Assembly: GCF_022539665.2 (NCBI RefSeq)
Contig: NC_081334.1
Span: 1,178,001 to 1,242,000, forward strand
DNA length: 64,000 nt
Origin: Daphnia carinata
Lineage: Eukaryota
Reading direction: 5' to 3'
This document shows positions 15,743 to 52,511 of the stretch, one piece after another (position 1 is the first letter of the stretch; the number at the start of each line of letters is the position of its first letter). The notes under the pieces were generated by a model that was given only the letters and a program-made list of their open reading frames with translations, ran no database searches and had not been told where the DNA came from. A program made the position numbers and the translations under genes.

Positions 15743-15789
15743 GTATGGTTGTGTTTTGTTTTATGTTGTGATTATGTCATGCAAATTAA

Positions 15790-16098
15790 CCCGTTGGCTG
15801 CCACCCACCCACTTTGATCCCCTTTTTTTTGTAGCTTGACAGGGACGGGCCGCGCTGTTCTGCTCCATGGTCTATCTGCCATGGGGTGGAGCAGCGCCAC
15901 TGCCCAAGATTGGCCGAATGGCCCCAAAGGCAATGCACCACAGGGAATCCCTTGATCGAGACGGCGATGCAGACCTGGGATGTGCATTTCCGTAAAGGTC
16001 TCATCGCCGTCTCAGCCCGGCCCACCCGGCCCCCTTGGTCGCTATCCCTTTGATAGCGACAGTAGCTATTGTAGATAGGTGGCGTGGCAGCCAACGGG
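15790..16098. mobile_element. piggyBac-like MITE (309 bp)
   Basis: TIRs cccgttggctgccac / gtggcagccaacggg, flanked by TTAA (15786-15789) and TTAG (16099-16102). CCC termini with a TTAA target are typical of piggyBac. Confidence 0.75.
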
Positions 16099-16247
16099 TT
16101 AGTTTTAAGTGTATTTGTGTATGTATTGTATGTTGTATACTGTATTTTGAAATGTATGTAAAAGTGGTGGATATGTGGGTGGAAGGAGGGACAATAAAAA
16201 CGATTTTACACTATTTACTTTCGTATTTATTATTTAGCTATACAGTT

Positions 16248-16319
16248 GCTGACATGGGGATCGAACCCTAGTATTTTAGCGTGACAACCACACGCTTTAC
16301 CATTATTCCAACCATCAAC
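16248..16319 (-). pseudogene. Degenerate tRNA-like module (GTC at the anticodon-like position)
   Basis: 72 nt; acceptor-like stem GTTGATG/TGTCAGC with wobbles, A-box-like TAATGGTAA, B-box GGTTCGATCCC; poor D and anticodon stems. Confidence 0.55.
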
Positions 16320-16397
16320 TTATGAACAACTAATGTGCATTCAATAATAAGCTAATGGGAATTGCAAATCTATATATGTATCACAATCCTAAACAAC

Positions 16398-16477
16398 GTT
16401 AACAAGAGCAGCTATGGCATAACAGAAGCATACTGGCCTGCGACACAAGAAGTCTGTGGTTCGATCCCCATGTCAAC
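16398..16477 (+). pseudogene. Second degenerate tRNA-like module, divergent from the first
   Basis: Acceptor-like GTTAACA/TGTCAAC and B-box GGTTCGATCCC; its 3' 18 nt are identical to those of the first module. Confidence 0.5.
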
Positions 16478-19678: not shown

Positions 19679-22600
19679 CTAGGCATACCATGCCCACATA
19701 AAGGCAGACACCGACATGACTAATATGGCATTGGTGTTCACGAACCTAATGAAAATTTCCACATGCATACGATTAGGTTTTCATCATTACAAAACAATGT
19801 ACAATGACATAATTACCTAAACCATTTCGGGTCTTCTTTAATAAACTCACTAGCCATGAGGGCTTCTTGCTTGGGATCGATAACAGCAGTCACCACAGCG
19901 GTAGTATCCTGGGTTACTTTCTGAGTCTCGACGCCACAGAGGCAGTTAATGGCCTTCCTCCAGACAGGCAATTCAACTTTAATGTGCGTTGAATGAAAAA
20001 AAAAAAAAAATTAGTATTAATAATTATGTTACGTGACCATTACAGAAAGCGACAGGTTTCATAAACTGCTAAAATACCTGCATTGTCAACTATTGGCTGG
20101 GGTTCGTTGAGTTCGTTTACTGAGTCGTTGCTTGCTGTAGTCGAAGAATCGGCATTCATTATGGGTGTCGTCTCTTTTTGTGATTTATCAGAATTGTCAT
20201 TGTCTTCCAATATCGATCGAACTTGGGAGCTGTGACGGCTCCAAAATGTAAGACGGTACAACTGCGTTCAAGGCATTTTCATTAGTGCGGTCATCAAATA
20301 ATGACTAGCATTATTAGATTTCTTACATATTTTTCATCAATCGGTTCCGTGATAAGTGAAACGAGTACCGTTGTTACCAGCGATATGACGAACAGAATGC
20401 AACCAAAATGAAGATAGTGAACGTTTCCCACAATCTTCTTGATGACCTCTGGTCGAGGATCAGGCAGACCTAATAAGTGTTTACATCCGATATTAGATTA
20501 TAACAGAAAGCTTGTTGAATTGACGTTTCAATTTCACGTACCTGTGCCACATGGTGGAATAACGTAACCAAACTCCAAACCGAAGCGGATGAGTCCCACA
20601 ATCAATCCTACCATAAGGCCCCAGAAAGCTCCCTGAAAGAAAAAGCAAAAATCCAATTATTGCTGTACATGTGGCAAAACAAGACAACATTTCTGATTTA
20701 AAAAAATTTGTTTAGTATGGGAAATAAGGACTGGTACGAACACCTTTAGTAGCATAAGGCTGGGGAAAATTACAAAATGATAAATGGCAAAGGCTGATAT
20801 TAACACCAGCGTGGTTAGTGATTATAGATTTGCAGATACCTGAAGCGAAAGAAGAATTAATTATTACATAAACCAAAAGACGGTTGATTTTTCTGCAAAT
20901 AGGCCCATGTTTAGCTAAAGCAAACAGGCTGTTAAGTTAACCATTGAATGATTGATCTTATGCGTGCATTTACATCTCTGATATGCGTAATACTACTCAA
21001 AATTCTAAATGGTTCGAGGTTAAGGCTACTCTGTCGTAACTGCTACACGTAGATGATAACGTATCATTTTTTGATGAGACAATTTCGAATATCTACACGT
21101 ACTTAAACTTCAACCACTTAAAATAATGAGCGAAACAAATGCAAGGGACTCGCGCGTTACGTCGAACGTGTCACTCGCGGGTGGGTAATTTAAGTTAGCT
21201 TTAAGATCTATAATTGGCATAGAGGGGTGAATTCTAATTATGAAGAAACCTGTTCATTGGTGCGTGGGATGAAAAAGGCCAGTAAGTACACAGCGCAAAC
21301 GGGTGGTGCTAAATATGATGTAATATTTTGAATGTAGACGAAGAGTTGGCTTCCTTGAGATGCCTGAATCATCGGAATCCACAGGATACTGATGGCTACT
21401 AGGACCAGCACAAAGAGTCTGTAGAAATGATGGCAATAGAAAGTAAGGAAATGATCAGTTACTGCCCGTTTGGGGACTACTCACTTACAAATTAATATTC
21501 CTTAGACTTAGTATATACATATCTGGCATTCCGCAATGGACGTACTTCAATTACGGCGAACAGGAAGTTCAACGAATACCCAATACATCTTAGTATTACG
21601 GTGCGACGAAAGTAGTTGTTTAATGTAATTATTATAGCAATGAAAGAAGCATGAGGCAGAAAATCCATTACGTCTTTTGATATTAAAGCAAATGATTAAT
21701 TAAGCAAAGGACAATGGAGAAGCTGAATAAAACAATGAAGTTAGGTCGAAAGCTATCGGTAATCTAAGGTGGTGAGGAAAGGTAAGTTAGTTTTTCTCGG
21801 GTTTTCCTTTAGCATATAGGCAATTAGTTCCTCAGCTAACATCGGTTATTAATTTTGTTTGTTTGAAGATATTAATGCCTTACTGGTTCATTTGTTCGTG
21901 GCCAAAAGACGGCCAACAAAAACACCGCGCTGACGGGGGGTGATAAGATGTTTTGCACTTGTTGCATATAAGTAAATAATTGTGACCCGGCTACATTTTG
22001 GATGATTGGCACCCACAACACACCGATTGCCACCAGCAACAAGCAACTCACTCTAGGATCACAAGACATGACATTGAAATTACATTAAACAAACAATTCG
22101 TCGTCGCACCCCCGTTGCTTGGCTTTTTTGTCGTCACATAATTTCTTACCAAGTTACATAACCATGTTTATGGTATCATTATGGGCTAGTCTGCCGCGCC
22201 AGAAATCCGTGATCAACAAGATAAGAGTCAAACGAGGATTTTGTTATTTGATTAAACAATTTCTACGCTGACGAAACACTTAATGATCAGCTTTATCATC
22301 GAATGAATAAGCACTAAAATTTATGTAATTTCTCATACGTCGGTGACACTGCAAATTTTCTCTTCGCACCGTATGCATAACGATTAACCAAGTTAGCCAA
22401 AGGAGATGTTGATAACTTATTTTAATCCCTAATAAAATTACCTAATAGGTTTTCGCTTACGACCTAATAGTTCTCTACTTAAGATTTACATGATTACCTT
22501 CCGACGATGAGCAGCTCGATGTCAGAAGGATTTTTCCGAATCCGAGTCCAGATGTCCATAGTGAAAATAGTTGACGATGAGTTGAAAATCGAAGTCAAAG

Positions 22601-25145
22601 AACTCATTAAAGCTGCCAACATGACGGACAACATTAAACCAGTCAATCCTGCAGCATTGATAAAAGGTATAGTAGGCAATTCGCAGACGTAGATCAGTTG
22701 GAATTCAAAAAATTGCATACCTGGAGGTAATAAATTGATCACGAGCTCAGCGTAAGCGATATTAGTGCATCCGGCCTGACTTCCACAAATTTTTTCGCAC
22801 GCCTGTGGATCAGCACAGGCAACCCTATCAGTGTATAGCACTCGCGAAGCCATTCCGGGGAAAATGATGATAAACAACGGAAGGATTTTCAGAAAACTGG
22901 CCATGATACAGCCTCCTTTTGCGTGATTCATGCTTTTCGCTGCCAAAGTTCGTTGAACGATAACCTAAGTAAGCCAAAAAGCCATACGCAATTTTCAGTT
23001 AAAAAAAATAAATAAGAGGATGCGAAAAGGTATACACGCATTACCTGATCAGAGCACCAATACCAGATGGACGAGATGGTAACACCGAAAACGACGCCAG
23101 TCCACGGTAATTCAGGCGACGTGATGCTCTTGAAAAGGTGCATCGCATCGGGCGGAATGTTTGCGCACGATCTGTTGTTCAAATCATACGCGGTGTAGTT
23201 TTCACTCGGGTACGCCATGAAAAACTGGCGAATCAACTCGCTGTAACCACCGACTTTGACAAACGCTGTTGATAACGAACGAAAAAAAAAATGATTCGCA
23301 AATAGTTTTAACAATCAACCAAGATTCAATAAAACGTAATATGGTAAAGGTTATGTGTTACCCATGCCCATCAAAATGAAAGATCCAATCAACATAATGA
23401 TGGTCTGCACGAAATCTGTCCAAATAACAGCCGTCAATCCTCCGGTGATGGTAAAGAGTGCCGCAATACCTAGGAGGATCAAGATGGAAATATAAATCCC
23501 TGCGTCTCCTTCCAAACCCATTGCTTGTTGAATAAAAATAGCTCCGGAAAACAAATCAGCCTAAAAAAGGAATGTTGAAATAATTTTAACTTGTATCATT
23601 TTAAGTAATCATATAACCATATCGCACCGAGATTTTAGTGAACACGTAGAGAAGAAGGGCTAGCACGGAAAGGTAGACACGAATCCGCTGCCCACCAAAT
23701 CTGAGTCGTAGGTATTCCGGCATAGTGTAAACACCGCTGGCTGTTTGGCAAAACGCCAGTTAAAATTAAATTATTCAGACAACGTGTGATCATTTCGTCA
23801 ACCGGTCAACTTACCCATGTAGACAGGAACAAAGACGTAACCCAAAAGAATCAGAACAAACATGGCCTGCGGATGTGAAAACCCAATACGACACATTAAT
23901 CGTCGTTACACTGATCGAGTGAGGTTAGCTATTTCGAATAGAATCTTACGTTTAATTCGAATGCCGCATTGCCAATTCCGGAAGCCGCACCCGATCCGGA
24001 TAGTCCAACAAAATGTCCTGATCCGATGTTGCTAGCAAATAATGAAGCTCCTACCTAGTGAGTTTGACGTTTCAATTAATAATTCTTACATCCATTATGC
24101 AGAAACGAATAAAGTTTTAGTAAAAGCCAAATTACCGGAATCCAGTGCATATTTCTCGATGCAAGAAAATAGCCGCTAATGCTGTCTTGCTTATTAGAAC
24201 GGCCAGACTATCATTCAAAAACAAAATTATACAATCATAAACATTTATGAATAGGCTAATTCGCCGCGCAATTCACGGGGCATAAAATAACTCATTTATT
24301 ATTCACATATTTTGCAAGTTGCTCTCGAGCGTGGTCTACTGTTTACCTGTCGTGTGCAGTAAACATTGGTATCAGGGAAAGTACTACTTTAGCTTCCCCT
24401 GGATTAAACGGATTCGAGAAATCAACAATACGAAACCTGCTGATGACGACGCTCACTGATGTCGTTGCGTGGTTTTGATAACGGGGAACAAAAACAGCAC
24501 GTACGTAAATTGTACCATTAATCCCCCTTCCTTTCGTAACTTGACTTTTGAAGTTTCTGCTAACATGAAGGTAAACTTTAAAGGGGCTTTCCATTTTTTT
24601 TTTTCAAACAACAAATAGAAGATGTCGTGAGCTTAGAGGCAAAAGATAATGTGGTTACTAAACCAAACTGAAATGGAAGAGAGACTCTCTGGAAATAACC
24701 TGATTAACACACAATGCCAGTGCTGACAGGAGATACATAAATGCAAAAGAAAACCATGGCAAAGGGAAACAATCAGCGATTACTCATGTTCTTGGTCTTG
24801 CATTGTCGATGTTGATAATCAAACAACACTCCCGAACCGTGCGATTTGAAACAATAACTGAAATTCGACCCAAACGTATCGCAACTATTTGGCCTGTAAA
24901 TATTCGATGAACTAACTTTATGATGGGAAGGGGAAAAACCACGTAAAAACCCACTGCTTTCTTAAAAGGCAAAGAGCTCGTCTCAGCAAAAACAAGTGAC
25001 CTTTTCTCATTTTTCTTTTCTAATCAATGCCTTAAGTTAATTTTTTTTATATTGCATGAAAGAAACAAAATTTCGGTACTAAGAATTTAAAGAGCAAAAT
25101 ATTACCCACAGTCCTACGGCGAGAATGCCCACGAAATAGATAGCT

Positions 25146-38700: not shown

Positions 38701-41700
38701 TCCGGTGTTTGATAGGAAAAAAAAAGCACAACTAAGCGTTAATTGATGTCCAACTCGACTGAAATCGAAACATGTTTTCTGTGTTACATTGACCGTTTGT
38801 AGTTCGTTTAACAGGTAAACATAAACGTAGCCAATCGTGCAGGTAGACAACACGTCAGAACCCAACTAGCTGATTTGTATTTCCAGAAAACTGATCTCAA
38901 ACAGTTTCACGACGAAAGTAAGCTGTGCATAACGTTCGACACTCACGCGGACGACCCAACAAAAATGCGCACTACGCCCAATAAAATCTTTTAACGAAAA
39001 AAATAAGGAACAAAAACACCGGAGACTTTGGAGAAGTCAGGACGTGCACAACTGGATCGCTAGCTGGTACATACGTGACTGTTTGAAGAAGATAAAAAAA
39101 AAGATGCGAGTCCTCGACGTTGACCCAATGGGTTCACGATAGTGTGAAACCTCGTTGCTTCCTCTATTTGGTTTCGATCCTTCTGCGCAACCGCAGTCAG
39201 TCCTCAATCCAAATAGGGAGGGTCCATTTTTCTCTCTTTTCACGTTTGTTTACACTATGTTGCATACACCTGCTCAAGTGGAAAGTGAATGCCACATTGT
39301 TGTTGTGTATCTTCTTTCGTTAACGAGCAGCTTTTAACTTGGAGCGTAAACAATGTCAATGTTTGTTTTTTTTGGAGGAGGGGTGGGGATTAAATGCCCG
39401 TCTTCTGAATTTTTATGGAAATGAGAAATCGTTTTCTTGCTAATGACCTAGCAGGTGGTGGTGGTGGTGGTGGACGTGAAACGATGTATTGATTCTCTGC
39501 TTGTACGTAGCGGCTTTGATTTAAAGATCCCCATCAACAATGTGCTCCGCATTTTCAATAAATCATTGCGTCTTGTATTCAATGAATATCCAACGCATTT
39601 TTTTATTTCATACAAAATAAGTTTTTGAATTGGTTACAAGAAAAAAAAAAAAAAAAAGAAGAGGGAGGAGTAAATAAGAAAATCGTTGCACAATGAATAA
39701 GGATGAAGAACAGCGCGCGAGCCAATTAAGCCTACACGTCGTAGCTTGAGTGAATTATAGATTAGGTCTAACAACGTTGTGTCCCGTAACCTATTGTTGC
39801 CTTTTCCCATTTTTCTCACGATCTGTTTTCCTTTCTCTTATCCTATACGCACAAACGGTGCTATGTGTCGTTCGTGATTTCGACGTGCCGTGCTTTCACA
39901 GCCCAACCGGCAGTCGCCCATGACTTCCATCCGCAAACTGAATTTGTTTATGAAGAACGAAGCAGCTACATCAAATCGATAGATGAAAAAAAAAAAAAAA
40001 AGCTTGGGAGGAAAGAAAACTATTGATAAAGAGAAGGCGGGGGCATGCCCAGTATTCGAGTAGTACATGGCCAGTAAACTATAGGTCTATACAGCCTATA
40101 TATCCGATGAAGAAAAGAATCCCGTAAATTGGATCTGCCCTTTCCAAATAAGAAAAACAGAGGCGAACAAAAAAAAAAAAAAAAAAAAAAAAAAGAACCT
40201 ACGTAAGAGAAAAGGGAAAGGCGATAGAAAATTAATAAAAAAAAAAAAATAATAATAGTAATAACGTCGTAGCCTAGCAACTCTCAACTCCCATCCTTTT
40301 TTTTTTTTAGGGTAAGGGAATACAACTTCCTCTTTTTTTTTTCCAACGTTTCCAAAAGTCTTGTTGGTAACGTTCAATAAGTGAAATCCCATCTTTGGCG
40401 TGCATTAGAACTAATATAAGAACAGCAAACTCAAGGTATTATAGATGTTTGAAAGATCAGGATTTATTGGTAGTATTAATGAGCTTTCGTCGTATAGCCC
40501 AGATCTTATTGCTGTCTAACAGATTGGCCTTCTCCCTTCCGGCAAAAAAAAAAAATGAAAAAAAAAAAAGGAAAATGCCAAGAGCAAATCCGTGACAAAC
40601 GCCAACGCAGATAATATATGTTACAAAGCATTTTTAAGCCGATGCAAAGAAGAAAGTATATAATGTACAGCTAATGCAATACGCAGCCGCAGAACGGAAG
40701 CCTATCAAGAAAAGGATTGGGATAGAATTATAGCTAAAAAGAATAAACACGATCGGCTTTTTAAAAAAAAAAAAAAAATAGGATCTTCTATTTTAACACA
40801 GACTTAGCAGCCACGATATGAAGCTGATGAAACTAAATGTTTCGACGTTACTTTGTGGGATTAGACGAGTGTACAAAACTGTTTTGATCCGGAATTTTGA
40901 AATGAAATTTTAGCCAATGAATGCCCCGTATTTTGTTTCTTATTGTTTTTGCGCGTGGATTCATGCAACTTGCAATGTTCGCTCAATGACTTTGGAGTTC
41001 GGTGCAAACGCACGCGAACATTGTAACAACCAGCAAAGTTTTCGGCTGCTCAAATTGATTGACGCTACACAACCGACTTCAGATTGACTACTATGATTGC
41101 CTCATGATTACGTCGGATGCTTGTGTAGCCCGCTAAAAGTTGCGTGTTATTTCTTCGCTTCCGGCTAGATACATACTAAAGCGTCAGCTATGAGCCCTTG
41201 TGGGCAAACGGGGGGTTCTCCGATCGATTAAAATGCGATGACGGTCGGCCAATCGCCGTTGGTCCGTCTACTGTACTAGACTCGTGGCAACATTCTCTTT
41301 GATTTTCCCCATGCCAATTTCACGCTTCCATGATGAAATCGTGGTAAAGAGAAGAGTAACCGTGGCTCTCCATTCTATATGGTCATGACTTATGCAACGC
41401 ACAACTGGGTTCCAAACTACTTAAGCAACAGTTTCCTCCGGCCTATTGACACACGTATCAGACGAACTCAAGCAACTGGCAACTTGCAATCTGCCACAGT
41501 TAAAAAAAGCCTTTCAATCAATGCGTCTTTTGGTAAATCAAAAGAAACGCGATATCAAGAAGGGGGGGGGGGGGCACTGTGAACGATGTCTACAAAAAAA
41601 CAGTTGGCCGAACCCAAAGGCCTGCAATCACGACGATGAGCAAACATATAGGTTGCACCGCGCGCAAACAGTACGCAATGCAAACGATCGATGGTTGCAC

Positions 41701-44700
41701 AAACTTTGGCAGGCAAAGGGCGATTAGACAAAACACATCGTCTTATATGCAAGATAAAACTACACGCTCGAGTAAGTTTCATCGCTTAATGCTGCCTATA
41801 GTTGCGTGAATAAGCGAACGGGGGGGGGGGGGGTAAACAGCGTTAGTTTTAAACCTTCCGCCTTCACGTATCAAAACTATTTTGAAATGCGCCCCGTCTT
41901 GCGGGGAAACGGGTTGATTCTTATACCTCTCCACCAATCTCCGCATTTCGATGCTTGAGTTAGTTCGGGTTGAGCACAGAGTGTGTTAATGCTCCTTTAG
42001 TCTTTGTTTTTTGAAGGAGAGAGGCCCTAGTTTATTCAAACGACTTGTGGATTATCGCAAACGGTGGCAGCGGCACGTGCCCGGCTTTAAGCAAACTGAA
42101 ACGAAAAATACAAAATATTCTTCGTTTGCCTATAAACATTTGATCAAAAACTCTATGCATGCAAATTTTCATATTTATTTACGGTATCTATGCAGGCGTG
42201 TGTGCGATACCAAATTTTTAAAAAATGGTATTCCGCTTTTTCAAATTCGACTTTAGTGCGCTATATGCGCAAACTGTTTGTGCGTGAATGTTTATACAAG
42301 TAACGGTAATCGATCTTTGGCTGCTGTTGCTTTCCCCACTCCATCGCAAGTCAAACAAAGGAAGGCCTGGTTAAAATACGCGAGGCCAGCAGAGCCAATG
42401 ACGTTTACCAGCCTCGCATTAAACCATGATCGTTTAAAGGGAATTTTGAGCAGAATAAAGGATCACGCAGTATATTGGTCAAGAACGGTGGTCTCTCCTA
42501 CGATTCTATGTCGTAAAAGCCGGAAGTTCAATGTTACGCATTCAAGCATGCCACACCTGAGGGATGTGGAGTTAGCACGAACCTTTAAAAATGCACGAGA
42601 GATTTCAAGTTCGTTTGTTGGCCTAACGACAGTTGCGAAATGTGTGCAGTGAAAACACGTACACGCCTTTCGACATTGTAATCGTCAAATGTCACGCAAA
42701 CCGGTGCAGGTAGAAAAAAAAATAGCAATGAACACACCCAAAGTCATTGAGTAAATGACGTCAAACGTTCGTAGGGATCGAAATTCTAAAGGCAGGTGTT
42801 TCTACAACGTTGTGGGCGGATTTTGATGCCTTTCGAATGGGTACGTTGTTTGATTTCGTACCGCGGGAATATGTTTCGTATAGGTACAAATGTATAATCA
42901 AACGCGAAAGAACTCCACCCCCCCCCCCCCCAAAAAAAAAAAAGGCTGACTTGTAATGCAAAAAAACGTGAAAAGAAAACTTCCGATTGAACTTCCAACA
43001 ACATGTTTGATTAAAATGAGTCTTTCTTTCAAGAAAAAAAAAAAAAGATTCACCTCATCAGTTTCTACGGTACGCCTTACAAAGGATGAAGTTCCTCAAT
43101 AATTGAGATGCAAATCTAGTGCAGGTTTTCAAATGAAACGGAAATTAAAAGCAACCGAACCGATCTGTTGCCTTTGATTCAATCATAAAATAGAACGAAA
43201 AAAAAAAAGAAATCAAAAGCTATTGAAGCAACTTGATTGAAAAATAAAAATACGTCGCATTATCTACTACTCGCTCTCACATGCTGTACATAGTAGAGGG
43301 TTCAGGTTATCGAAGAGAAAGTGGTGATGAATGTTTTACCTGCATTTCTTTGGCCAGACCATTTTCATTGAAGACCGGACGAACTCGTTTGTCAGCAGTT
43401 GGCGGCACTCGTGTGGGGGTTTGCAAGTTATTTTGGTGCACACCTTTCCGGATTCTCACTCCCAGCGAACTATGTTGCACATGTCCGATTGATTGACACA
43501 GTTAATCTGATTTGAGATGGAAGAAACGCGAATGACGTTGTTTCCTGCGTTATGCACTTTCGTTGGGATCAGCCAGACCACACTCGAGAAAGCGAAAAAC
43601 ACGACTAGCTAAATTTTGTGTAGGGATGTGTGGCATTTGTCCCAATTAGGGGGTTGAGAGAGAAAGTGACGTAATGAAAGGTAGGGTGAACAAAATAGGT
43701 AAGAAAAATTGCGCTGTTGACAGATCACCGAATTTGTGACGTAATCATTTTTGAATAACTGTAAGTACAACAACATGAAATTTTATTAAGAAATAGGAAT
43801 GGTCCGTTTAAAAATTAGGTCAGCATTTCTATTCACGTTGAGGTATTTTTACTCACGCGACTTTGTGGCTTTGCGGTATAACGAAAATCGGACATCACCA
43901 CCAACAAGAACGATTCGGTTTCAGTCTGCGCGATAAAAGTTTTAAAGAAAAATTAGGTTAATTATTAAATCGTGCTTACCTGGGCGTACAACACCTGATG
44001 TAGCATTCGATCTCGTTTTCTTATGTTTGTGTGTTTCCATCCAGTTAAAAAAAAAATAACGGGGAATATCAACAGACGTCATCAAATAATTTCTCTTTGA
44101 ACTTTGCGTTTACTGAACATTTTCAAAAGTTTTAGATTCAACGGTGACGATAGACAAGATGAGAATTGCTTGGAATTTTCAAAAAAAATGAAAAGGAATA
44201 ACTATTTCTAACGCTGAAGTGGAATGGCTCAGTCATCATGGAAGGTATACGAACGGAAAAAGTGTGTCCCGCTCTCCGACTTCTTTCATTTCGATGGAAT
44301 GAAAAGATTGTGGAGCATCCCCCTCTTCACTATTTTCTTTGTCCGCTCCACCATTTCAAAGTGCTCGCTTTTCGCACTTCTTTAATCCGCTTTACATGAT
44401 GAGGAATCTACAGCATTTACGAACAAAGATAAATAAAGAATTTAAAATTTCAATACATGTTTCTTTTACGTCATCTATACGTACACGTTTAAGCTGATGG
44501 ATTCCAATTGCTTGCGTGGTTCAACATATCGGAGCACGTCACAACAGTCTGATGGCGAACCAAAGTAGAGCAACGTCATTTACTTTGACGTGAAAGAGAG
44601 CTGCTTTATAGAGCCTACCCTTTCTTCTCCTTTCCAGTATAATATTCTGCCTTTTGTGGTGGATGTGCTTTATCTCATCACGCTGCTCTTTAGCCCTCTT

Positions 44701-50500: not shown

Positions 50501-52511
50501 GTCGGCAAACATTTTGCAATGAAAGCAGTGATAGCCATAAGCATAACGCTTTTGTTTTGCATTCAACTATTCGTTTGATAGAAAACTAGTTTTTGATTTC
50601 TCTTGTTATTTTGTTTGTTTCCTTTTATTACATTAGAATACTTCAGGAAAACAAGAAAATAACAAACGAAATTGGCTTCTCCTGAACTGACAGCTATGCT
50701 ACTATAGAAAAACGTCATGCACAGATAACTAGATGTAGACCAGTATAACATTCTTCATAAGAGATATAAGTAGGCCGAACGGCTAGGGGTCCCCCATTGG
50801 CGCAGAGGCTTTACAAGCCCTAGCAGCACATCCGGTTATTACATACAATGAAGCATAGCGGACATTAAAGAATAAAAAAAAAAAAAAAAAAAAGGGACAG
50901 GATCGTTTGTTAGAAACAGGAGAAATAATAAGCCTTCTTATGATCGCATATACTACTGCCGTGCGCTAACGACATGTGTCACTGTTATTAGGTGCTTCTG
51001 TCTGTGTCACAAAATCTTTATTTTCCTATTCTTGTTTTCGTTTTTTTTTTTTGTTTACTTTAATCAAACAGATCGATCGTCCGGCAGTTGCATCGTAGGA
51101 GGCAAAACGTATTTGTCGGAAACTTCTGTGCCACGTGACCATCCTTGTCATTACTGCATCTGTTACGGCGGCAAGATTGACTGCTTCTGGAAACAGTGCG
51201 CCCACATTCCAGACGGATGTCAAGTGATGGCCTTCCAAGACACCTGCAACCCTTCGCTTTACATATGCGGTACGAACGCCAATTGAAACTTTCACAATTG
51301 ATCAATTTCGTCAATTGAAAACAGACTGCCAAAAAAAAAAACTGGTTACGTGACGCTAACGATGGCCCATTGATTTTCATTCAAATTTCGACCGCGTTTC
51401 TTAAATAGATATTCCCGAGAAGGCTCGTGAAGCCCCGATCTACGCACCGCCTCTAGCCGTTCGCCAACAACCGACGTTGCAATCGTTGCCATCAACGAAA
51501 ATCTACACGACAACGAGCCTGTCCACGACGACATCATCACCGCGGCCACGATTAACTCAGCCATCGACAATTGTGCAAACATACGCAAAGCCGGAGGTGG
51601 TTCCCCCTTCGCGGCATCTCGTCCCGCCGGAACGCCAACCGATTGAACCGCCATCCCGTCATTTAACTCCACCCCTGCCATCGGCTGTTGTCCCGCAAAA
51701 GAAATCCATTTCTATTTCGCCCCAACGACGGCCCGTTGTTGAAGTTACAAACAAACAGCCTGCGCAATTCGGGTTAGGAATGAAGAATAAAATGCGTTTC
51801 AGTCGGTCACTGGCCGATGTTAGCTCCGTCCTCGAAACGATGTTACCGCATAACATCCAAGAAGAATTCCCGTTGAACTTCGACCAAGAATTCGTGATTC
51901 GTTTGGTCGAAAGGCAAATCCGCTCAAAGCGATCGATCAACGACGTGGCAAGTGGCAATCATCACCACCATCACCACGACCACCACGAAGAAGAGGATCG
52001 CGGCTGCACCATTCTTGGCATTCATTATCAACTCGGCGAAGTAATCGGTGAGTTTGCGGTCGGTAAGGCAACTCTCACAAGATAAATAGACGGGTACTTC
52101 CAAAACATTTCGCGTCGCAAAAAAGAAAAGAAAAGAAAAGAAAAGGAAAGTTTTGAACGAAAGTCGTCCTTGTGGTCGTCTTTAAATTATTTATGAGGCC
52201 GTAAACAGATGGTTTCTGATGGAGGTGGTCGATTCTAAAAAGATTTGCAGATGAGGCGTGAAACGGTGAAATGCATTTTAGTTGCGTGCTAACGAAGTTT
52301 GAATTGCCGGTTAACAGGTGTGGCCACCGACGTTTGCCGCGAATGCCGATGCGCAGCACAGTCTCTCTTTTGTTCGCCAAAGTGCTGCTTCAAACCGGCG
52401 CCACTTCAGCAGGTGACGGGAGATTTCGTTCGCGTCTTGGAGCAGAGCTCCGCACCAGCCTCGGGATTAGAAGCTCCGCGGCATCCACTTCATTACATCA
52501 AGAGCGAGTGA
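47586..52511 (+). CDS. Secreted protein (~378 aa) with two VWC-like Cys-rich domains; exons 47586-47640, 50446-50496, 51072-51269, 51409-52047, 52318-52511
   Basis: Signal peptide MVAPMLLLGFVLIACIRA; all introns are GT-AG phase 1 and the frame stays open; C..Y...CxxCxC..G...C motif in exon 3 and GCTILGIHYQLGE..CRECRC..FCSPKCC across exons 4-5. Confidence 0.8.

What the first reader, a model, noticed from the sequence alone, without database searches (positions are those of the whole stretch)
21597..22110. Long-range intronic stem that loops out exon A and masks its branch-point region
Seen: 22078-22092 (aattacattaaacaa) is the perfect reverse complement of 21616-21630, and 22101-22110 (tcgtcgcacc) of 21600-21609. 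This gives a 15+10 bp stem with an internal loop that spans exon A. The upstream arm lies 26-58 nt before exon A's acceptor, where the branch point is expected. Known: docking/selector RNA pairing controls mutually exclusive exons in arthropod genes such as Dscam1, 14-3-3zeta and srp. Inference: this stem silences exon A and selects exon B.
Basis: partly seen in the sequence, partly recalled or inferred. Interest (0 to 1): 0.85.

Follow-up and report, generated by a model that had tools for sequence, protein, structure and literature searches.

The report
Young stem over alternative transporter exon
In a water-flea sugar-transporter gene, two intron segments on either side of one of two either-or exons are perfectly complementary and are predicted to pair and hide that exon's likely branch point, but the downstream segment was not found in related water fleas, so it is likely a recent dampener rather than the conserved switch first proposed.

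Summary
The window is a Daphnia carinata SLC5 (SGLT-like) gene on the minus strand, with duplicated 169-nt exons A (22052-21884) and B (21418-21250).

The 15+10 bp stem is the strongest duplex between the two introns flanking A (-34.6 kcal/mol; 0 of 398 shuffles). It is predicted to form with probability above 0.9 and covers exon A's only YTRAY branch-point motif.

The upstream arm is kept in other Daphnia. The downstream arm has no counterpart in the one orthologous intron read in full, and aligns in 0 of 4 relatives' contigs that span it. No covariation and no convincing competing stem around B were found.

The A/B pair is older than the stem appears to be. Including both exons or neither causes a frameshift to a premature stop. 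Best reading: a lineage-restricted, ATE1-R1R3/srp-stem-I-like dampener of exon A (0.5).

Side finding: the window's exons A and B are letter-identical to another species' exons, while a same-species mRNA contig differs at 14 of 170 letters of B. This suggests a chimeric assembly.

The parts
22498..22648 (-). Constitutive exon upstream of the pair (ends ...IELLIVG-R, phase 2)
   Evidence: spliced joint 21418/22498 in X1 record 3
22358..22373 (-). U1: second upstream segment complementary to the 3' half of the downstream arm; would still loop exon A but leave its branch point free
   Evidence: -23.6 kcal/mol, 3 of 300 shuffles; pairing probability 0.03 free, 0.57 when U2 is blocked; not aligned in X6 record 17
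22077..22113 (-). U2: upstream arm (10-bp GC-rich helix 22110-22101, 15-bp helix 22092-22078)
   Evidence: best local match to ortholog L001 intron (score 31); aligned in X4 record 2 (to 22096) and X6 records 16, 17
22084..22088 (-). Likely branch-point motif TTAAT of exon A (A at about -33), inside the 15-bp helix
   Evidence: only YTRAY match within 60 nt; 12 of 14 acceptors of this gene have such a motif; branch use not shown
21884..22052 (-). Exon A, 169 nt (3n+1), SSF domain segment matching hSGLT1 428-483; Gln at the T460 position
21764..21805 (-). Branch-point-like CTAAC, pyrimidine tract and AG about 97 nt after exon A's donor (cryptic acceptor or distant branch point)
   Evidence: 21767-21805 aligned with 1 difference in X4 record 2
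21650..21681 (-). Candidate 5' arm of a weaker stem II around exon B
   Evidence: -29 kcal/mol, 7 of 453 shuffles; 12 of 91 GC-matched background pairs as strong; pairing probability 0-0.12
21597..21631 (-). M: downstream arm, 253 nt after exon A's donor and 179 nt before exon B
   Evidence: letters confirmed in X1 record 4; no counterpart in L001; 21603-21638 unaligned in all spanning contigs of relatives
21250..21418 (-). Exon B, 169 nt, 56% nt and 33 of 57 aa identical to A; Thr at the T460 position; the exon used in the mRNA contig seen
20873..20911 (-). Candidate 3' arm of stem II
   Evidence: not aligned in the deep X4 record
20542..20632 (-). Constitutive exon downstream of the pair (GAFWGLMV...)
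   Evidence: joints in X1

Best explanation
The two intron arms are complementary over 15+10 bp across exon A of a Daphnia carinata SLC5 transporter gene and are predicted to pair in the pre-mRNA and hide exon A's likely branch point, which would bias splicing toward exon B as a likely recent, lineage-restricted dampener. Shown: the complementarity, its rarity, the either-or exon pair, the frameshift when both or neither exon is used, one B-only mRNA contig, conservation of the upstream arm, and failure to find the downstream arm in relatives. Inferred: the downstream arm arose as an inverted copy of the older branch-point element. About 450 nt are transcribed between the arms, so exon A could still be chosen when it is committed before the downstream arm emerges, or when U1 captures that arm. 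Exclusivity itself is likely kept by older means, with nonsense-mediated decay removing double-inclusion and skipping products.
For: Exact complementarity; 0 of 398 and 0 of 300 shuffles. The stem is in the MFE and centroid of an 841-nt fold, with pair probabilities 0.92 and 0.95. The branch motif is 0.02 unpaired with the stem and 0.80 without it. The differences between the arms cluster in the spacer (rough p = 0.02 under uniform decay). X1 mRNA joins upstream exon, B and downstream exon. The stretch 21603-21638, most of M, is the only part of the A-B intron left unaligned in both X6 lineages, which otherwise align. Same geometry as ATE1 R1R3 and srp stem I, where disruption raises use of the looped exon (PMC7797038, PMC4691838).
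Against: No covariation or conservation of the pair. In L001 the U2 homolog's best partner is at chance level (-20.2, 74 of 300; intron pair 50 of 141). B also appears dominant in D. magna (7 of 7 Logan-only members with the segment are B), so B bias may not need this stem. About 1 in 90 GC-matched background pairs gives a duplex as strong. The whole 841-nt region folds no better than shuffles (z -1.04). No read-level A/B ratio and no structure probing were available. The window's exon letters may not be the native ones.
Confidence: 0.5

Rival explanations
1. The downstream arm is a neutral inverted copy or chance match. Exon A is spliced or rejected before the arm is transcribed, U2 is conserved as a branch point and protein-binding element, and the A/B choice depends on splice-site strength, regulators and decay.
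For: U2 is conserved without M. M lies in the least alignable patch of the intron. Other strong duplexes occur in the window. Frameshifts allow decay to enforce exclusivity. B dominance is seen in D. magna too.
Against: 25 of 25 perfect pairs with differences confined to the spacer. The helix lands on the sole branch motif, and the ensemble predicts it above 0.9.
Confidence: 0.3
2. It is one half of a conserved srp/ATE1-type dual-pairing switch. Stem I silences A, stem II (21681-21650 with 20911-20873) silences B, and the partner sequences turn over between species.
For: Interleaved layout like srp and ATE1. Stem II is -29 kcal/mol, 7 of 453 shuffles. The read aligner may miss short conserved blocks. 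Only one orthologous intron pair was read in full, and it lacks the intron after B.
Against: Stem II is matched by 12 of 91 background pairs and has probability 0-0.12. X6 record 14 has 3 changes among the 11 paired bases of its outer helix, partner unseen. There is no R4-like partner before B (318 of 400 and 67 of 400). L001 has no significant stem around A.
Confidence: 0.15
3. Exclusivity comes from the conserved branch-point-like element close behind exon A's donor (21805-21764), acting as a distant branch point or decoy acceptor, and the stem is secondary.
For: CTAAC plus 17 of 21 pyrimidines plus AG; 38 of 39 letters kept in X4 record 2. A distant-branch-point mechanism is reported for OGDH exons 4a/4b (PMC7969005, start of abstract only).
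Against: It lies 97 nt from the donor, beyond the roughly 50-nt steric limit (recalled). Several AGs lie between it and exon B. It is not among the top local matches to L001.
Confidence: 0.05

Closest known systems
Human ATE1 exons 7a/7b, R1R3 helix (Kalinina et al., PMC7797038; passages read)
   Same: An element at the first duplicated exon pairs with an element in the middle intron. In ATE1 this hinders one 3' splice site, and disrupting it raises use of the first exon.
   Different: ATE1 has R4, similar to R1, competing for R3, plus R2R5, all conserved across vertebrates and tested by mutation. Here no R4-like partner was found and M was not found in relatives.
Drosophila srp exon 4.1/4.2 bidirectional pairing, stem I (Yue et al., PMC4691838; passages and sections 5 and 8 read)
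   Same: An upstream-intron to middle-intron stem loops out the first exon and favours the second; skipping causes a frameshift.
   Different: srp has four conserved elements and two tested stems. Here only stem I is strong, and conservation is one-sided.
Dscam1 / 14-3-3zeta docking-selector competition (as summarised in Ivanov and Pervouchine, PMC6071210; part 1 of 5 read)
   Same: Long-range intronic pairing at tandem duplicated exons in an arthropod gene.
   Different: No single docking site with one selector per exon. U1 and U2 both compete for M, but both pairings loop the same exon.
SLC5 sodium/glucose cotransporters (PF00474; hSGLT1 structures 7wmv, 7sl8)
   Same: Full-length homolog. 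The swapped exon covers the positions of F453, Q457 and T460, which form the outer gate and sugar site (PMC9616851, passages).
   Different: Exon A puts Gln at position 460, where 101 of 104 located homolog segments have Thr or Ser. The 3 exceptions are Daphnia A isoforms.

Membership tests
Tandem duplicated mutually exclusive exons | Two adjacent homologous exons of equal length and phase, each giving an open frame alone | tested here: met
   169 nt each, 33 of 57 aa identical; both exceed the PF00474 cut-off
Tandem duplicated mutually exclusive exons | Each isoform expressed, both exons never together | tested here: inconclusive
   B junctions seen in one contig; A and B isoforms annotated in D. 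carinata, magna, pulex, pulicaria; exon A has 19 nt changes and 0 aa changes against L001; no A junction seen directly
Docking/selector competing pairing (Dscam1, 14-3-3zeta) | One docking site complementary to a selector for each exon | tested here: not met
   M with the intron after B: 39 of 300; M with sequence before B: 318 of 400 and 67 of 400
Docking/selector competing pairing (Dscam1, 14-3-3zeta) | Both arms conserved or covarying across species | tested here: not met
   U2 kept, M not found in L001; M unaligned in 4 of 4 spanning contigs, though their letters there could not be read
Docking/selector competing pairing (Dscam1, 14-3-3zeta) | Disruptive and compensatory mutations switch and restore splicing | not testable with these tools
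   needs a minigene or antisense experiment
srp-type bidirectional dual stems | Stem I around the first exon | tested here: met
srp-type bidirectional dual stems | Stem II around the second exon | tested here: inconclusive
   7 of 453 shuffles, but 12 of 91 background pairs and probability 0-0.12
srp-type bidirectional dual stems | Four conserved intronic elements | tested here: not met
   of the four candidate arms only U2 shows conservation
ATE1-type R1R3/R3R4 | Element before the first exon's acceptor pairs with a middle-intron element | tested here: met
ATE1-type R1R3/R3R4 | R1-like element before the second exon competes for the same partner | tested here: not met
   best U2 to pre-B match is 6 nt; duplexes at chance level
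Decay-enforced exclusive exons | Double inclusion and skipping both give premature stops | tested here: met
Decay-enforced exclusive exons | Aberrant products accumulate when decay is blocked | not testable with these tools
   needs Upf1 knockdown RNA-seq
SLC5/SSF transporter | PF00474 above cut-off; full-length SGLT homology | tested here: met

The most novel reading that the evidence does not exclude
A splicing switch caught at birth. An inverted copy of a conserved branch-point element landed in the next intron of one Daphnia lineage and was retained. It put an old either-or exon pair, which swaps a sugar-site residue (Thr/Gln at SGLT1 position 460), under new RNA-structure control that sister species lack.
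Probability: 0.3. Interest if true: 0.65.

Novelty: new member of a known kind. Interest (0 to 1): 0.4.

Why it matters
Known structure-controlled exclusive exons are mostly old and conserved. A strong stem present in one Daphnia lineage and absent from relatives would allow a direct test of how such control is added to an existing exon pair, by cross-species minigenes. The exon pair also matters in itself: it swaps the gate and sugar-site helices of an SGLT-like transporter, with an unusual Gln at position 460 in isoform A, so the isoforms likely differ in substrate or function. Separately, if the window's exons A and B are foreign letters, the reference annotation for this species is wrong at this gene and possibly at other conserved exons.

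Tried and rejected
No whole genome is held for the window.

Run search: no holder on record as RNA. X1 nevertheless gave spliced contigs. Contigs cannot give A/B ratios, and the lack of an A junction is not evidence of silence.

Ortholog searches: 5 metagenome loci, of which L001 is the ortholog. L002 is an intronless copy and L003 has a single exon copy up to the contig end. L004 and L005 were not read. Genome contigs gave one bacterial locus and viral contigs none.

Partners of M rejected: 20876-20858 (-9.2 kcal/mol; M with that intron 39 of 300) and an R4-like partner before B.

L001 features rejected: a 13-bp match between its introns is at chance level (35 of 2000 shuffles reach 13 or more). 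An apparent G/A versus C/T covariation between U2 and an A-rich patch after the donor was rejected because it is low-complexity and not colinear.

RNA editing as the cause of X1's 14 differences in exon B was rejected. The changes are of mixed kinds, and the two recoded residues (Val, Gly) are genomic in L001.

Rfam: only a sub-threshold lncRNA hit. Earlier scan notes: nothing relevant. A protein-level search for read-throughs of the M region could not be run, so it remains untested.

Literature: no paper on this gene's exon pair turned up. PMC3228551 and PMC9741552 passages do not cover it. No supplements were opened; exon catalogues in supplements could list it.

Full report
Locus. The window encodes a minus-strand SLC5/SSF transporter (PF00474). 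Eleven constitutive exons translate to 547 of 547 residues identical to the annotated Daphnia carinata protein XP_059351175.1, against 514 for D. magna and 463-467 for D. pulex, D. pulicaria and D. galeata. Exon A (22052-21884) and exon B (21418-21250) are both 169 nt, 56% identical in DNA and 33 of 57 in protein. Each gives an open frame alone; both together or neither gives a premature stop. Isoform pairs differing only in this segment are annotated in D. carinata, magna, pulex, pulicaria and Folsomia candida. A 56-column tree of 39 segments, chosen from the fetched proteins, groups Daphnia A with collembolan segments at only 82/81 support, so a shared origin is possible but not shown. A contig of run X1 splices the upstream exon to B and B to the downstream exon. 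All 7 Logan-only members of the D. magna cluster that hold the segment carry B; contigs drop minor forms, so this is weak evidence.

Observation. Both complementarities are exact and each word is unique in the window. The duplex is the best between the two introns. A perfect 15-mer arose in 3 of 2000 shuffles, and 0 of 300 and 0 of 398 shuffles reached its energy. Real sequence is a harsher control: 6 of 116 segment pairs reach it, and 2 of 91 GC-matched pairs do, one being this stem. The 841-nt region is not unusually stable overall (z -1.04), but the stem is in both the MFE and the centroid. In the 1079-nt ensemble the helices have probabilities 0.92 and 0.95. The TTAAT at about -33 is the only YTRAY within 60 nt of A's acceptor, and 12 of 14 acceptors of this gene have one. 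It is 0.02 unpaired with the stem and 0.80 when M is blocked (that script took an AG 2 nt off for exon A, which shifts the printed offset only). YTRAY as branch consensus is recalled knowledge.

Competitors. A second upstream segment, U1 (22373-22358), pairs with M's 3' half (-23.6, 3 of 300) and reaches 0.57 when U2 is blocked. It loops the same exon but would free the branch point. M has no significant partner after B (39 of 300) or before B (318 of 400; 67 of 400). A separate stem II around B (21681-21650 with 20911-20873) is interleaved with stem I, as in srp and ATE1. It scores -29 (0 of 33; 7 of 453), but 12 of 91 background pairs match it and it barely forms (0-0.12).

Conservation. One orthologous locus was readable in full: L001, whose partial exon B matches the D. 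galeata residues. Its best intron match upstream of A is U2, GC-rich part included. Its U2 homolog has no partner beyond chance (-20.2, 74 of 300; intron pair -23.4, 50 of 141). Among contigs of relatives laid at 80%, three extend into U2: X4 record 2 to 22096, X6 record 16 to 22169, and X6 record 17 to 22109, the edge of the GC-rich helix. Of four contigs spanning M (X3 record 1, X4 record 2, X6 records 13 and 14), none aligns over 21603-21638, although the X6 records align most of the rest of that intron and pieces as short as 22-25 nt were reported elsewhere. I could not read their letters there, so compensated or split arms are not excluded. Read-through ORFs also show U2-like residues upstream of exon A in other Daphnia (P0161, P0163). 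U2's constraint therefore does not appear to depend on M. The differences between U2 and the complement of M cluster in the spacer (rough p = 0.02), which fits selection on the helices or a single event.

Mechanism. Shown: complementarity, position over the likely branch motif, the frameshift logic, and one-sided conservation. Inferred: M is a young inverted copy of U2; pairing hides A's branch point and brings the upstream donor nearer B; A is used when it is committed before M is made or when U1 holds M; decay and older factors keep exclusivity. I give this 0.5, a neutral copy 0.3, a conserved dual switch 0.15 and a distant-branch-point mechanism 0.05.

Comparison. It works like ATE1 R1R3 (PMC7797038, passages) and srp stem I (PMC4691838, passages and sections 5 and 8). 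It fails the membership tests for competing docking/selector systems as described in PMC6071210 (part 1 of 5). The swapped segment matches hSGLT1 428-483 and includes the positions of F453, Q457 and T460 of the gate and sugar site (PMC9616851, passages). Isoform A has Gln at 460, where 101 of the 104 segments located among 120 homologs have Thr or Ser. Searches found no paper on this exon pair.

Caveat on the exon letters. X1 matches the window in introns (577 and 297 letters, 0 differences) and in flanking exons (1 of 150, 0 of 81), yet its mRNA differs at 14 of 170 letters of exon B. Conversely, organism B (runs X2 and X3, one study) has exons A and B identical to the window (0 of 181 and 0 of 178), while its upstream exon differs at 26 of 157 and the introns around A and B do not align. 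Contigs in two metagenome studies show 0-1 differences too. X6, whose introns align, differs at 22 of 164 in exon A. All 3 carinata-unique residues in exon B match outgroup states, against 1 clearly, and up to 3 partly, of the 9 elsewhere. The window's two exons thus look foreign. An assembly or polishing chimera is the likeliest cause (my estimate about 0.85); exon-limited transfer is not excluded. M's letters are confirmed by X1; U2 is covered only by relatives.

Verdict. The feature is real and the pairing is plausible, but its function is unproven and it is probably lineage-restricted. It is a new member of a known kind; interest 0.4.

Noticed in passing
window 21875-22055 and 21244-21421: Both alternative exons are letter-identical to those of another species (runs X2, X3; 0-1 differences in X4 and X5 contigs), while a same-species mRNA contig differs at 14 of 170 letters of exon B and closer relatives differ by about 13% in exon A. 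Likely an assembly chimera; exon-limited cross-species transfer is not excluded.
   Followed up: partly
window 21764-21805 (-): CTAAC, pyrimidine tract and AG about 97 nt after exon A's donor, kept at 38 of 39 letters in an X4 contig. Possible cryptic acceptor, terminal exon or distant branch point.
   Followed up: partly
window 20822-20863 (-): Acceptor-like sequence in the intron after exon B, followed in frame by five codons and a stop; aligned in the deep X4 contig. Possible poison or terminal exon.
   Followed up: partly
window exon A, codon 33 (about 21953-21955, -): Gln at the hSGLT1 T460 position, found only in Daphnia A isoforms among 104 located segments. Isoform A may have a different substrate or function.
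   Followed up: partly
P0027 / P0028 (Folsomia candida): An isoform pair differing at the same segment with identical flanks, so the either-or exon may be very old or may have arisen twice.
   Followed up: partly
window 15787-16101 and 16250-16475: Two perfect 18-bp inverted repeats beside a GC-rich repetitive stretch, probably mobile-element remnants.
   Followed up: no
window 1-1079, 40701-42000, 50601-51679: Other strong long-range duplexes (-37 to -43 kcal/mol) found as background; not examined.
   Followed up: no
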